This document shows positions 36,710 through 37,640 of a stretch of 64,000 nt of DNA, in pieces. Each line of letters starts with the position of its first letter. Positions within the stretch are counted from its first letter, which is position 1. Source of the stretch: Orbus sasakiae (lineage in GTDB: Bacteria; Pseudomonadota; Gammaproteobacteria; Enterobacterales; Orbaceae); the NCBI RefSeq assembly GCF_039542345.1, contig NZ_BAABHY010000006.1:28292-92291 (forward strand), in the 5' to 3' direction. A program made the position numbers and the translations under genes. The notes under the pieces were generated by a model that worked only from the letters and a program-made list of their open reading frames with translations, did no database searches and was not told the origin of the DNA.

Positions 36710-37640
36710 GATTTAAATGGGTAGGTTACAGTAAAGATATTTGCAAGGTTTTTTATTTGTCGCTTCGTGCGACTCACCTATTAAGATGCTATTTTAAAAT
36801 GTTGCAGACATTTTTTCGCCTCTAAAAGTGTGGATGAATTTATAGCATTTGATGCTCAGGCGACCGAGGGTTTCCAACGAAACCCTCCGGCTCCCCGTTC
36901 CACTACGCGTGGTGCGTAAGGGCGAATATTTGACAGATTTAGGTTTTTTTAGTTCATCTATATGCTAATGACATGAGTTAAGAATAGAGGTTAATAAATA
37001 GTGATTTTTTGCGAGATGGCTCGCAAATTTTGATTTAAATGGGTAGGTTACAGAAAAAATATTTGCAAGGTTTTTTTATTATGTATGTGCTATTTGTTTA
37101 TTCGTCGCTTCCTGCGACTTACCCTTCGGGCCAACGGGCAAGCCTTTTTCGAAAAGGTTCCGGGTATTTGTTTCGCCTTTAAATCAGTCGTGCAATATTG
37201 ATGTTCAGGTGCTCAGGCGACCGAGGGGTTCAAACCAACCCCTCCGGCTCCCCGTTCCACTACGCGTGGGGCGTAAGGGCGAATATTTGACAGATTTAGG
37301 GTTTTTTAGTTCATCTATATGCTAATGACATGAGTTAAGAATAGAGGTTAATAAATAGTGATTTTTGCGAGATGGCTCGCAGAATTTGATTGAAATGGAT
37401 AGTGTTCAGCAAAGATATTTGAAGTGGTTTTTATTATGATTGTGGGATATTTTTTCGTCGCTTCGTGCGAATTATCTATTAAGATGCTATTTTAAAATGT
37501 TGCAGACATTTTTTCGCCTCTAAAAGTGTAGATGAATTTATAGCATTTGATACTCAGGCGACCGAGGGTTTCCAACCAACCCCTCCGGCTCCCCGTTCCA
37601 CTGCGCGTGGTGCGTTAGGGCGAATATTTGACCGGTTTGG
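36710..37640. repeat. Tandem array of three ~325-355-bp units, each with a conserved ~80-nt GC-rich core (ctcaggcgaccgaggg(t/g)tt..cccctccggctccccgttccact(a/g)cgcgtgg(t/g)gcgt(a/t)agggcgaatatttgac)
   Basis: Units start at 36710, 37032, 37387. Cores at 36855..36934, 37211..37290, 37553..37633. Small hairpins gtcgcttcgtgcgac and ttgcgagatggctcgcaa. No conserved ORF across units. Confidence 0.8.

What the first reader, a model, noticed from the sequence alone, without database searches (positions are those of the whole stretch)
36710..37640. Tandem ~330-bp repeats with a conserved GC-rich ~80-nt hairpin-rich core in an AT-rich intergenic desert
Three consecutive units share an 80-nt GC-rich core containing a bulged hairpin (ccgagggttt...aaaccctccgg) and a second short stem (ccac-tacgc-gtgg). 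Substitutions between units sit in stems in ways that partly preserve pairing (gggttt/aaaccc versus ggggtt/aacccc). Flanks are AT-rich with small hairpins (gtcgcttcgtgcgac; ttgcgagatggctcgcaa). No conserved ORF spans the core, since 'atg' frames differ between units. It is not CRISPR (period ~330 bp) and not ERIC/REP as I know them. Tandemly duplicated sRNA genes or type I toxin-antitoxin-like repeats (cf. sib/ibs, ldr arrays) are plausible. The array sits between a DDE-less tandem Zn-ribbon protein and an AT-rich membrane protein.
Basis: seen in the sequence. Interest (0 to 1): 0.7.

Follow-up and report, generated by a model that had tools for sequence, protein, structure and literature searches.

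The report
Tandem candidate small-RNA genes, Orbaceae-specific
Three head-to-tail copies of a conserved, GC-rich, hairpin-forming ~140-nt element, each with a promoter-like box and most with a terminator, look like an unannotated family of small structured RNA genes found only in bee-gut Orbaceae bacteria and historically placed just downstream of the RNA-repair gene rtcB; transcription and function are still unproven.

Summary
There are three tandem units (period 322-357 bp) at about 36700-37680. They share a ~140-nt GC-rich core with a 22-nt invariant block. Rfam, plasmid, phage, viral and metagenome searches found nothing.

Six related copies exist, all in Orbaceae: Orbus hercynius (two in tandem), three Gilliamella species, and one metagenomic contig. 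Each genome holds the element at a single locus.

The core can fold into three helices: P1 (a long-range closing stem), P2 (a hairpin with a bulged C) and P3. About 90% of positions pair. Only 3-4 pairs show compensatory changes, so covariation is suggestive, not significant.

Three things favour the + strand:
- G·U pairs are more frequent than A·C pairs.
- Folding energies are better on the + strand.
- Three terminator hairpins are oriented on the + strand.

Each unit starts with a promoter-like box (B1). B1 also precedes radC here, and reverse-transcriptase or DndB genes in relatives.

Two unit types (A and B) differ in a ~35-nt segment, and each type is conserved across genera.

The ancestral position is directly downstream of rtcB. 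One contig has the intact arrangement and two genomes have rtcB remnants fused next to the element.

Best reading: tandem paralogous genes for a structured small RNA of unknown function. A type I toxin-antitoxin, a MITE/REP element and CRISPR are not supported. An Arg/Pro-rich ORF is conserved but shows no coding signature.

The parts
36701..36754 (+). B1 box of unit 1. It is promoter-like: TTTAAA at 36712-36717, an 18-nt spacer, then GATATT at 36736-36741. It is divergent from the Zn-ribbon gene.
   Evidence: B1 profile hit, E = 1e-11. The motif is conserved upstream of Zn-ribbon-gene homologues in other Orbaceae. The promoter reading is inferred.
36759..36773 (+). Small leader hairpin gtcgcttcgtgcgac. 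It lies inside a 40-60-nt insert that only the window's units carry.
   Evidence: Read from the sequence. It is absent from the Orbus and Gilliamella copies.
36807..36944 (+). Core of unit 1 (type A): P1 5' strand, J segment, P2 hairpin with bulged C, P3 hairpin, P1 3' strand.
   Evidence: Covariance-model hit of 153.5 bits, E = 4e-31. Structure.
36958..36979 (+). B3 block, internal form (CTATATGCTAATGACATGAGTT).
   Evidence: Conserved between the window and the first Orbus copy.
37008..37037 (+). B4: intrinsic-terminator-like hairpin GCGAGATGGCTCGC followed by a T-run, ending unit 1.
   Evidence: Terminator scan, + strand only. The same hairpin sits between the two Orbus copies.
37021..37076 (+). 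B1 box of unit 2.
   Evidence: B1 profile hit, E = 9e-13.
37163..37301 (+). Core of unit 2 (type B). It is 97% identical to the Gilliamella wkB112 copy in both the J segment and the core.
   Evidence: Covariance-model hit of 163.7 bits. Identity matrix. Fold of -45.2 kcal/mol, z = -3.3.
37315..37336 (+). B3 block of unit 2, internal form.
   Evidence: Alignment.
37363..37394 (+). B4 terminator-like hairpin ending unit 2.
   Evidence: Terminator scan.
37377..37432 (+). B1 box of unit 3: TTGAAA, 18-nt spacer, GATATT at 37390-37419.
   Evidence: Flagged by the promoter scan. B1 profile hit.
37505..37642 (+). Core of unit 3 (type A). Its P2 hairpin is a mismatched hybrid of units 1 and 2.
   Evidence: Covariance-model hit of 145.1 bits. 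Pair table.
37656..37680 (+). B3 block, terminal form (TATATGTTAATGGGATTGTTAAG). No terminator follows, so any transcript would read towards the 326-aa ORF.
   Evidence: The same terminal form is found in the Gilliamella wkB112, wkB171 and L066 copies.
35876..36664 (-). 262-aa protein with two [Zn-ribbon + helical (HTH-like)] modules. It is divergent from the first B1 box and is a candidate regulator of B1. This link is an association only.
   Evidence: Weak hits to the IS1/IS1595 Zn-binding domain and to HTH_23. There are 12 homologues, and the named ones are Orbaceae. B1 lies upstream of it in 5 lineages. The AlphaFold model has pLDDT 90 and no PDB fold match.
40012..40059 (-). A further B1 box, pointing at radC (39200-39913, - strand).
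   Evidence: B1 profile hit, E = 8e-11. Sequence.

Best explanation
The array is three tandem paralogous genes for a structured small non-coding RNA read from the + strand. The family appears confined to Orbaceae.

Each unit is a self-contained transcription unit, in this order:
- B1, a sigma70-like promoter box (TTKAAA, 17-18 nt, GATATT).
- A short leader.
- A ~120-140-nt domain. The long-range stem P1 (UUCGCCUU / AAGGGCGAA) closes a junction that carries a variable ~35-nt segment (J), a 14-bp hairpin with a bulged C (P2) and an 8-bp hairpin (P3).
- B3, a conserved tail block.
- B4, an intrinsic terminator, present after the two internal units only. The last unit lacks B4 and would read on into the neighbouring cargo gene.

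The units come in two types (A and B) that differ in J. Each type is conserved across genera, as expected if J specifies a partner (an RNA target or a protein) and the GC-rich core is a scaffold.

The element's ancestral position is immediately downstream of the RNA ligase gene rtcB, at the edge of a variable, defence-gene-rich slot.

Shown: the repeat, its conservation, its synteny and its ability to fold.

Inferred: transcription, strand, transcript ends, and any function. My working guess for function is a protein- or RNA-binding regulatory RNA, possibly connected to the Rtc RNA-repair context.
For: Repeat reality.

Distribution:
- A 19-mer scan of 185,579 species genomes found only 4 true loci, all Orbaceae and one locus per genome.
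- Orbus has a second tandem copy.
- A ninth, diverged copy lies on contig L066.
- The covariance model finds no other copy in 314 kb of window plus related loci.

Conservation: core identity is 94-97% between the window and Gilliamella or Orbus. The rtcB 3' end is 84% identical, the tails are 30-80% identical, and the neighbouring Zn-ribbon proteins are 34% identical at the amino-acid level.

Unit types: types A and B are each shared across genera.

Structure:
- RNAalifold recovers P1, P2 and P3.
- 88-91% of cells pair, against 38-55% for slid registers. Three to four pairs show compensatory changes, including two in P1 of the wkB171 copy and a GC-to-UA change in P2.
- L066 keeps P2 after changing GGG/CCC to AUU/AAU (my reading of the sequence).

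Strand:
- G·U cells number 27 against 9 A·C cells, and one U·G pair in P3 is invariant.
- + strand folds are 5-8 kcal/mol better, with z = -1.7 to -3.3, against -0.55 to -2.1 on the - strand.

Transcription signals:
- Terminators are flagged on the + strand only, after units 1 and 2 and after the first Orbus copy.
- The B1 box heads every unit. It also precedes radC, the RT genes of ESL0727, and DndB in L066.

Synteny with rtcB:
- L066 reads: rtcB 3' end, terminator, ~110 nt, element.
- wkB171 has an rtcB fragment fused to the element, and Orbus has an rtcB2 fragment abutting its array.
- The wkB112 terminator downstream of pdxY is homologous to the L066 rtcB terminator.
Against: - There are no transcription data.
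- Covariation is not significant: 39 of 500 shuffles (9 copies) and 13 of 500 (7 copies) reach the observed score. The RNAalifold covariation term is about 0. With only 5-6 lineages and a nearly invariant core, the test has little power.
- The - strand gives almost the same three helices, so the helices could equally be DNA palindromes.
- Several copies break pairs: unit 3 and the first Orbus copy in P2; the wkB178 copy in P1, P2 and P3; and L066, which lacks the P1 5' strand.
- Promoter calls are weak. Only the unit 3 copy of B1 passes the scan, and the total number of promoter-like sites equals the shuffle expectation.
- Single-copy Gilliamella loci show no clear terminator after the core.
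- The high cross-genus identity could reflect recent horizontal transfer among bee-gut Orbaceae rather than selection.
- An ORF stays open through the core.
Confidence: 0.5

Rival explanations
1. The conserved core is a DNA-level element. It would be a protein-binding or recombination site (the palindromes P2 and P3) marking the left border of a hotspot where defence or cargo genes are swapped. The tandem copies would then be by-products of repeated recombination or unequal crossing-over.
For: - The element always sits between conserved genes (rtcB, or pdxY in some Gilliamella) and highly variable cargo. That cargo is a membrane ORF here, a HEPN-like ORF in Orbus, Dcm plus a GHKL ATPase in wkB112, DndB in L066, and unknown ORFs in wkB178 and wkB171.
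- The equivalent radC-to-Zn-ribbon-gene slot holds RT genes or a type I restriction-modification system in relatives.
- The helices are inverted repeats that fold equally on either strand.
- A transposase-derived Zn-ribbon/HTH protein is adjacent.
Against: - No integrase or recombinase gene lies next to any copy.
- The conserved stretch is ~140 nt, with a 9-bp complementarity between segments 100 nt apart that keeps pairing through two double changes. This is unusual for a binding site.
- Conserved G·T positions make the 'palindromes' asymmetric.
- Whole units are duplicated, including promoter-like and terminator blocks, not just a crossover core.
Confidence: 0.15
2. Each unit encodes a small Arg/Pro-rich protein of 34-39 aa, M[L/F]RRPRGSNQPLRLPVPLRV[G/V]RKGEYL... 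The conservation would then be protein-coding. The product could be a leader or arrest peptide, or a small basic protein.
For: - The same frame is open in 7 of 9 copies, with an ATG or GTG (or TTG) at the same place.
- The wkB178 copy carries an in-frame 3-nt insertion.
- By my reading of the columns, 8 of the 9 variable third-position columns are synonymous.
- One such ORF has been called in public data (P0133).
- Supporting calls: 68, 69.
Against: - Variable columns by codon position are 9, 5 and 9 of 25, so there is no third-position excess.
- The 22-nt invariant block includes all its third positions, even though rtcB third positions differ at 12 of 42 sites.
- No Shine-Dalgarno sequence precedes the start (sequence).
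- The C-terminus and the stop position differ in every lineage. Unit 3 stops after 23 codons and the first Orbus copy is frameshifted.
- Only one hit turned up among 5.8 billion predicted proteins.
- In sequence of about 60% GC, a 35-codon open frame has a chance probability of roughly 0.3 (my estimate).
Confidence: 0.12
3. The units are non-functional relics. They would be segmental duplications of the rtcB 3' flank (terminator region plus downstream spacer), recently spread among bee-gut Orbaceae by horizontal transfer. Conservation would then simply reflect youth.
For: - rtcB remnants lie next to copies in wkB171 and Orbus.
- The native rtcB terminator in the window (CGAGGGGCCCCTCG, 34079-34092) resembles P2.
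- Unit tails are 98% identical between units 1 and 2, which indicates recent duplication or gene conversion.
- L066 looks like a decaying copy, with fold z about 0.
Against: - Blocks between the conserved ones have diverged to 30-60% identity between the same pairs of genomes whose cores are 90-97% identical. The copies are therefore old and the core is selectively retained.
- Two unit types are each conserved across genera.
- The element persists where rtcB itself has been deleted, as in wkB112, wkB178 and wkB171.
Confidence: 0.1
4. The array is a type I toxin-antitoxin array, as in the ldr/rdl or ibs/sib repeats of E. coli. Each unit would carry a small toxic peptide gene and an antisense RNA.
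For: The tandem ~340-bp direct repeats in an intergenic region resemble the LDR and SIB repeats in layout (my knowledge of those loci). Unit 3 is followed by an 18-aa hydrophobic ORF, MFYSYFVFYFVKDQFSVF, at 37680-37736.
Against: - No hydrophobic ORF is conserved between units or between genomes on either strand.
- The only conserved ORF is Arg/Pro-rich, not a membrane peptide.
- No Rfam toxin or antitoxin RNA family matches, even at E <= 10.
- The candidate - strand promoters seen in Orbus are not conserved elsewhere.
Confidence: 0.04

Closest known systems
Tandem paralogous sRNA genes of Gammaproteobacteria (for example OmrA/OmrB, PrrF1/PrrF2, Qrr1-5); comparison from my own knowledge
   Same: Adjacent head-to-tail units, each with its own promoter-like box and (for the internal units) a Rho-independent terminator. 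Paralogues share one conserved block and differ in another. The locus is single, intergenic and lineage-restricted.
   Different: - The transcripts here would be longer: about 285-320 nt from B1 to B4, or about 140 nt if only the core is stable.
- The conserved part is a GC-rich multi-helix domain rather than a seed plus a terminator.
- Neither Hfq dependence nor transcription is known.
- No Rfam family matches.
Bacterial Y RNAs (YrlA/YrlB, Yrn1/2) of rsr-rtcBA RNA-repair operons (Chen et al. 2014, PMC4201824; Hughes et al. 2020, PMC7790460)
   Same: Structured non-coding RNAs of about 100 nt or more, closed by a stem formed from their 5' and 3' parts. They often occur as two or more adjacent genes and are encoded in or beside an RtcR/sigma54-controlled rtcB operon. 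The window has RtcR, a sigma54 promoter, a tRNA-like gene and RtcB 2.6 kb upstream of the array. The element directly follows rtcB in L066.
   Different: - The proteins flanking the array and the rtc operon proteins tested have no Ro60/Rsr (TROVE) domain; the rest of the window's ORFs were not scanned.
- No Rfam Y RNA family matches.
- No GGUCCGA-like Ro site and no tRNA-like T or D arm was recognised.
- The element survives in loci that have lost rtcB.
E. coli LDR (ldr/rdl) and SIB (ibs/sib) type I toxin-antitoxin repeats
   Same: Direct intergenic repeats of a few hundred bp, in 3-5 tandem copies.
   Different: There is no conserved hydrophobic toxin ORF and no evidence of an antisense partner. 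No Rfam match was found.
REP/BIME, ERIC and MITE-type repeats
   Same: Small, GC-rich, hairpin-forming intergenic sequence in an AT-rich genome.
   Different: The element is not dispersed. The window holds three adjacent copies only, and each of four genomes holds one locus. It has no terminal inverted repeats or target-site duplications. The units carry promoter-like and terminator blocks.
Type III toxin-antitoxin antitoxin arrays (ToxI and relatives); comparison from my own knowledge
   Same: Tandem direct repeats of an RNA element lie upstream of a protein gene, with a terminator-like hairpin inside the array.
   Different: ToxI units are about 36 nt and precede a ToxN-type endoribonuclease. 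Here the units are about 340 bp, and the downstream gene differs in every genome.

Membership tests
Bacterial Y RNA (YrlA/YrlB type) | Encoded within about 4 kb of a Ro60/Rsr (TROVE-domain) gene | tested here: not met
   Pfam, NCBIfam and PDB sequence searches of the flanking proteins (526 aa SPFH, RtcB, 533 aa, the Zn-ribbon protein, 326 aa) give no TROVE or Ro60 hit, even at E <= 10.
Bacterial Y RNA (YrlA/YrlB type) | Match to the curated Y RNA / YrlA covariance models | tested here: not met
   Rfam 15 cmscan of 36500-37900 at E <= 10, and of five homologous loci at E <= 5, gives no Y RNA hit.
Bacterial Y RNA (YrlA/YrlB type) | Long stem formed by the 5' and 3' parts, enclosing a large loop or domain | tested here: inconclusive
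   P1 (9 bp) closes a ~100-nt domain and has two compensatory pairs. It is broken or absent in several copies.
Bacterial Y RNA (YrlA/YrlB type) | tRNA-like T-arm and D-arm stem-loops | tested here: not met
   ARAGORN finds no tRNA-like gene in the array. The P2 loop (6-10 nt on a 10-14-bp stem) and the P3 loop (5 nt) do not have T-arm geometry.
Type I toxin-antitoxin repeat (ldr/rdl, ibs/sib) | Conserved small hydrophobic toxin ORF in every unit | tested here: not met
   An ORF scan of both strands in 8 copies finds only one conserved ORF, and it is Arg/Pro-rich.
Type I toxin-antitoxin repeat (ldr/rdl, ibs/sib) | Overlapping or adjacent antisense RNA | not testable with these tools
   This needs strand-specific transcript data. 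The - strand promoter-like sites seen in Orbus are not conserved in the window or in Gilliamella.
Trans-acting sRNA gene (generic) | Own promoter | tested here: inconclusive
   The B1 box TTKAAA-N17/18-GATATT heads every unit and is shared with radC, RT and DndB genes. Only one copy passes the consensus scan, and the number of sites equals the shuffle expectation.
Trans-acting sRNA gene (generic) | Rho-independent terminator at the 3' end | tested here: met
   + strand hairpin plus T-run after units 1 and 2 and after the first Orbus copy. Absent after terminal or single copies.
Trans-acting sRNA gene (generic) | A discrete transcript is made | not testable with these tools
   No expression data are available. 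A literature search for Gilliamella small RNAs found nothing relevant.
Structured RNA (generic) | Statistically supported covariation in the proposed helices | tested here: inconclusive
   Three to four compensatory pairs. The covariation score is reached by 13 of 500 and 39 of 500 shuffles.
REP/ERIC/MITE dispersed repeat | Many dispersed copies per genome | tested here: not met
   The window has three adjacent copies only. Each of four Orbaceae genomes has a single locus.
CRISPR array | Repeats of 24-48 bp separated by unique spacers of similar size | tested here: not met
   The units are 322-357 bp and are homologous along their whole length.

The most novel reading that the evidence does not exclude
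The element is the RNA partner of an Rtc-type RNA-repair or stress module in Orbaceae. It would be a functional analogue of Y RNAs that works without Ro60. It could, for example, act as a decoy, substrate mimic or scaffold for RtcB, or as a signal for RtcR. In this genome it would have been amplified to three copies of two specificities, at the mouth of a defence-gene hotspot. The B1 promoter and the transposase-derived Zn-ribbon protein would then form a shared control circuit for the RNA, radC and the swapped-in defence cargo.
Probability: 0.12. Interest if true: 0.7.

Novelty: new member of a known kind. Interest (0 to 1): 0.4.

Why it matters
If the units are transcribed, this is an undescribed structured RNA family in the core gut symbionts of honey bees and bumble bees (Gilliamella, Orbus and relatives).

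Several features make it worth testing:
- Its nucleotide conservation exceeds that of the neighbouring protein genes.
- It has two conserved paralogue types.
- It has a persistent positional link to rtcB RNA-repair genes and to a hotspot that exchanges defence systems (reverse transcriptases, restriction-modification, DndB, HEPN).

It would add a testable RNA player to the poorly understood bacterial Rtc system, in a lineage that lacks Ro60. It would also supply a ready covariance model for annotating Orbaceae genomes.

If the units are not transcribed, the locus is simply a conserved repeat at an island border, of local interest only.

Tried and rejected
- Tandem Repeats Finder does not report the array. 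The repeat finder and profile searches do.
- Rfam gives nothing in the array at gathering thresholds or at E <= 10, and nothing in five homologous loci.
- BLASTN against the plasmid and phage collections gives no match.
- The IMG/VR scan gave 4 hits and the metagenome scan gave 2 hits. All are chance matches in unrelated, mostly GC-rich sequence.
- Of the 24 genome-scan loci, 20 are chance matches.
- An exact look-up of the window's Zn-ribbon protein found nothing on record.
- I tried to harvest more copies through PdxY neighbourhoods, fetching 25 loci from Gilliamella and Frischella. No new copy turned up. The hotspot content varies, and the 5-kb flank fell just short of the expected position in G. 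apicola-type loci.
- A search with the core-encoded peptide found a single called ORF, which led to the informative contig L066.
- Pseudoknot idea: pairing of the P2 loop with the conserved UAUUUGAC. Rejected, because different copies need different registers (my inspection of A8).
- The resemblance of the invariant block to the 23S sarcin-ricin loop, and of B3 (GCTAATGAC) to IS1 terminal repeats (GGTAATGAC), was judged to be short chance similarity and was not pursued.
- Homology of B1 to the rtcB 3' coding end (shared AAAGATATT) was considered. It is more simply explained as a deletion junction in wkB171.
- Ro60 hypothesis for the 533-aa protein next to rtcB: no TROVE signal, and the gene is absent from the closest relative, L037.
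- A Foldseek search of the Zn-ribbon protein model against the PDB gave only generic Zn-ribbon hits at E >= 0.4.
- PADLOC gives no defence-system assignment for the flanking proteins, apart from a type II methylase in wkB112.
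Full report
**1. The observation**

The region 36690-37700 holds three head-to-tail units. The repeat finder gives a 224-nt family with spacings of 357 and 341 bp, and a 71-nt family covering the unit heads with spacings of 322 and 356 bp. A MAFFT alignment of the units has 85% mean identity. The 20-mer CCTCCGGCTCCCCGTTCCAC occurs three times in the 64-kb window, against none expected. 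Tandem Repeats Finder misses the array. The conserved part is larger than stated, at about 140 nt plus flanking blocks.

**2. Not a known family**

Rfam 15 finds nothing in the array at gathering thresholds or at E <= 10. It also finds nothing in five homologous loci. Elsewhere in the window Rfam finds a C4 antisense RNA, isrK and one tRNA. Plasmid and phage collections give no match. The IMG/VR and JGI metagenome scans gave only chance matches.

**3. Relatives**

An exact 19-mer scan of one genome per species (185,579 species) returned 24 loci. Four are real:
- Orbus hercynius (L010).
- Gilliamella sp. wkB178 (L025).
- Gilliamella sp. wkB112 (L026).
- Gilliamella sp. wkB171 (L028).

Each has a single locus. 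A profile search then found a second tandem copy in Orbus. A search with the peptide that the core would encode found one called ORF, on a Gilliamella-like contig, L066, which carries a diverged ninth copy. A covariance model built from seven full copies (R1) finds only these nine copies in 314 kb of window plus fetched loci. The element is therefore single-locus, restricted to Orbaceae, and sometimes tandemly amplified.

**4. Anatomy of a unit**

Comparison of the window with Orbus, a different genus, shows four conserved blocks separated by diverged sequence.
- **B1.** TTTTGATTTAAATGGGTAGG...AAAGATATTTGCAAGG. It reads as a sigma70-like promoter: TTKAAA, 17-18 nt, GATATT. Only the unit 3 copy passes the consensus scan.
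- **Core.**
- **B3.** TATATGCTAATG, followed by ACATGAGTT in internal copies and by GGATT in terminal or single copies.
- **B4.** The hairpin GCGAGRTGGCTCGC plus a T-run. It is called as a terminator on the + strand only, after units 1 and 2 and after the first Orbus copy.

The last copy of each array, and the single copies, lack B4.

The window's units also carry a 40-60-nt leader insert with the small hairpin gtcgcttcgtgcgac.

A profile of B1 also hits three other places:
- Just upstream of radC in the window (40012-40059, - strand).
- Between the Zn-ribbon gene and two reverse-transcriptase genes in Orbaceae ESL0727.
- Upstream of a DndB gene in L066.

B1 therefore behaves as a portable promoter/operator box. 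It is usually divergent from the Zn-ribbon gene.

**5. Structure and strand**

RNAalifold predicts the same three helices on either strand, with a covariation term near zero:
- P1: UUCGCCUU / AAGGGCGAA, with about 100 nt between the strands.
- P2: GG-GACCGAGGGG / CCCCUCCGG-CUCC, with a bulged C.
- P3: CGUUCCAC / GUGGKGCG.

For the stated structure, 88% (nine copies) and 91% (seven copies) of cells pair, against 38-55% for slid registers. Three to four pairs show compensatory changes. The covariation score is reached by 39 of 500 and 13 of 500 shuffles. This is suggestive but not significant, because the core hardly varies.

L066 keeps a P2 hairpin after changing GGG/CCC to AUU/AAU, but it has lost the P1 5' strand.

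The + strand is favoured for three reasons:
- There are 27 G·U cells against 9 A·C cells, including an invariant U·G pair in P3.
- + strand folds have z = -3.3, -1.7, -2.2 and -2.75. - strand folds have z = -1.8, -0.55 and -2.1. L066 is near 0 on both strands.
- The terminators are oriented on the + strand.

**6. Two paralogue types**

In the ~35-nt segment J, between P1 and P2, the copies fall into two groups:
- Type A: units 1 and 3 and the second Orbus copy (68-94% identical).
- Type B: unit 2, wkB112 and wkB171 (94-97% identical).

The two types are 45-55% identical to each other. Core identity across genera is 85-97%. For comparison, the last 126 nt of rtcB are 84% identical between the window and L066, and 12 of 42 third positions differ. 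Tails are 30-80% identical. The Zn-ribbon proteins of the window and wkB178 are 34% identical. The core, and each J type, are thus better conserved than the surrounding genes. This points to selection, or alternatively to recent horizontal transfer.

**7. Genomic context**

The window carries an RtcR-controlled operon and related genes, in this order:
- RtcR, 28917-30587, - strand.
- A sigma54 promoter TGGCAC-N5-TCGCA at 30683-30698.
- A tRNA-like gene, 30849-30923.
- An SPFH protein, then RtcB (32849-34069).
- A 533-aa protein.
- The Zn-ribbon gene on the - strand.
- The array.
- A 326-aa AT-rich membrane-like ORF.
- radC on the - strand.
- Further on, RtcB2 and PrfH.

Evidence that the element belongs downstream of rtcB:
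- In L066 the element lies about 170 nt after the rtcB stop codon, behind the rtcB terminator.
- In wkB171 a fragment of that rtcB (aa 317-387) is fused directly to the element. In Orbus an rtcB2 C-terminal fragment abuts the array.
- In wkB112 the terminator after pdxY is homologous to the L066 rtcB terminator, and the same ~110-nt upstream region follows it.

The ancestral position is therefore downstream of rtcB, and the element outlives rtcB when that gene decays.

To the right of the element the genes differ in every genome and are often defence-like: a HEPN-like ORF, Dcm plus a GHKL ATPase, and DndB. The equivalent radC-to-Zn-ribbon-gene slot holds RT genes or a type I restriction-modification system in relatives. 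No integrase is adjacent to any copy.

**8. The ORF**

M[L/F]RRPRGSNQPLRLPVPLRV... stays open in 7 of 9 copies, with ATG/GTG at the same site, and wkB178 has an in-frame 3-nt insertion. Several points argue against coding:
- Variable columns fall 9, 5 and 9 on codon positions 1, 2 and 3.
- The invariant 22-mer includes its third positions.
- There is no Shine-Dalgarno sequence.
- The C-terminus is not conserved.
- Only one such ORF exists among 5.8 billion predicted proteins.

Coding is unlikely but not excluded. No hydrophobic peptide is conserved, so the type I toxin-antitoxin reading fails.

**9. The Zn-ribbon protein**

Twelve homologues were found, and the ones with names are all Orbaceae. 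There are weak IS1/IS1595 Zn-binding and HTH_23 signals. The AlphaFold model (pLDDT 90) shows two modules, each a helix, a Zn-ribbon and a helical bundle. Foldseek finds no PDB fold match better than E = 0.4. Its constant pairing with B1 suggests that it regulates B1. This is inference only.

**10. Verdict**

The best-supported reading is three tandem paralogous genes for a structured small RNA on the + strand, each with the layout B1 promoter, leader, core, B3 and B4 terminator. The family is Orbaceae-specific and historically tied to the 3' flank of rtcB (confidence about 0.5).

Rivals:
- A DNA-level border or recombination site of a cargo hotspot (0.15).
- A small Arg/Pro-rich protein (0.12).
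- Relic duplications spread by horizontal transfer (0.10).
- A type I toxin-antitoxin (0.04).

It works most like tandem sRNA paralogues. By context it recalls bacterial Y RNAs of rsr-rtcBA operons (PMC4201824), but it fails the membership tests for that family: no Ro60 among the proteins tested next to the array and in the rtc operon, no Rfam match, and no T or D arms.

Novelty: a new member of a known kind, namely an unannotated lineage-specific candidate sRNA family. Interest is moderate, and would rise if a link to Rtc RNA repair or to control of the defence hotspot were shown.

Noticed in passing
window 30683-30923: A sigma54-type promoter (TGGCAC-N5-TCGCA, 30683-30698) lies divergent from rtcR. 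It is followed by a 75-nt tRNA-like gene that ARAGORN calls tRNA-Leu(CAG). That gene is 37% GC and lacks the long variable arm expected of bacterial tRNA-Leu. It sits at the head of the SPFH-rtcB operon. This recalls the tRNA-like Y RNAs of rsr-rtcBA operons, but no Ro60 gene was found among the operon and array-flanking proteins tested.
   Followed up: partly
window 3120-3307 (- strand): A C4 antisense RNA (67.8 bits) and the isrK Hfq-binding RNA (58.4 bits) lie side by side. This is the pattern of a P1/P7/P4-type phage or satellite immunity region, inside a low-GC stretch.
   Followed up: no
window 32849-34069 and 42979-44702: There are two RtcB paralogues. One is a 406-aa RtcB in the RtcR operon. 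The other is a 366-aa RtcB2 overlapping a PrfH (RF-1 domain) gene, the ribosome-rescue type of pair. In relatives ESL0727 and ESL0721 the Zn-ribbon gene sits directly upstream of RtcB2-PrfH.
   Followed up: partly
window 40012-40059 (- strand); L031 9910-9964; L066 447-504: The same ~50-nt B1 box that heads each repeat unit also precedes radC here, two adjacent reverse-transcriptase genes in Orbaceae ESL0727, and a DndB gene in L066. A looser look-alike (TTTTGATTTAGATG...) precedes the 533-aa gene at about 34190-34235. Together these suggest a shared promoter/operator for accessory genes.
   Followed up: partly
L031 5763-10789; L033 7264-10789; L038 153-7126: The slot between radC and the Zn-ribbon gene is a variable defence hotspot in Orbaceae. 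It holds two RVT_1 genes (392 and 633 aa) in ESL0727, an RT plus an HTH protein plus a 79-aa ORF in ESL0721, and a type I/IIG restriction-modification system plus DUF5655 in L038. In the window it holds the RNA array plus a 27%-GC membrane ORF.
   Followed up: partly
window 34251-35852: A 533-aa helical-repeat-looking protein lies between rtcB and the Zn-ribbon gene. It has no Pfam, NCBIfam, PADLOC or PDB sequence match. It is absent from the closest relative (L037), where rtcB and the Zn-ribbon gene are only 38 nt apart, so it looks like an insertion.
   Followed up: partly
window 36849-36968, 37209-37325, 37547-37618: An Arg/Pro-rich ORF (MLRRPRGSNQPLRLPVPLRVGRKGEYL...) stays open through the GC-rich core in most copies across three genera. 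The substitution pattern does not look coding, but translation is not excluded.
   Followed up: yes
L010 7113-7220 and about 7880-8000: In Orbus the array is flanked on the left by a reversed rtcB2 C-terminal remnant. On the right is an ORF with an Rx4H HEPN-like motif (RNAVAH). An Imm8 immunity gene lies further left.
   Followed up: no
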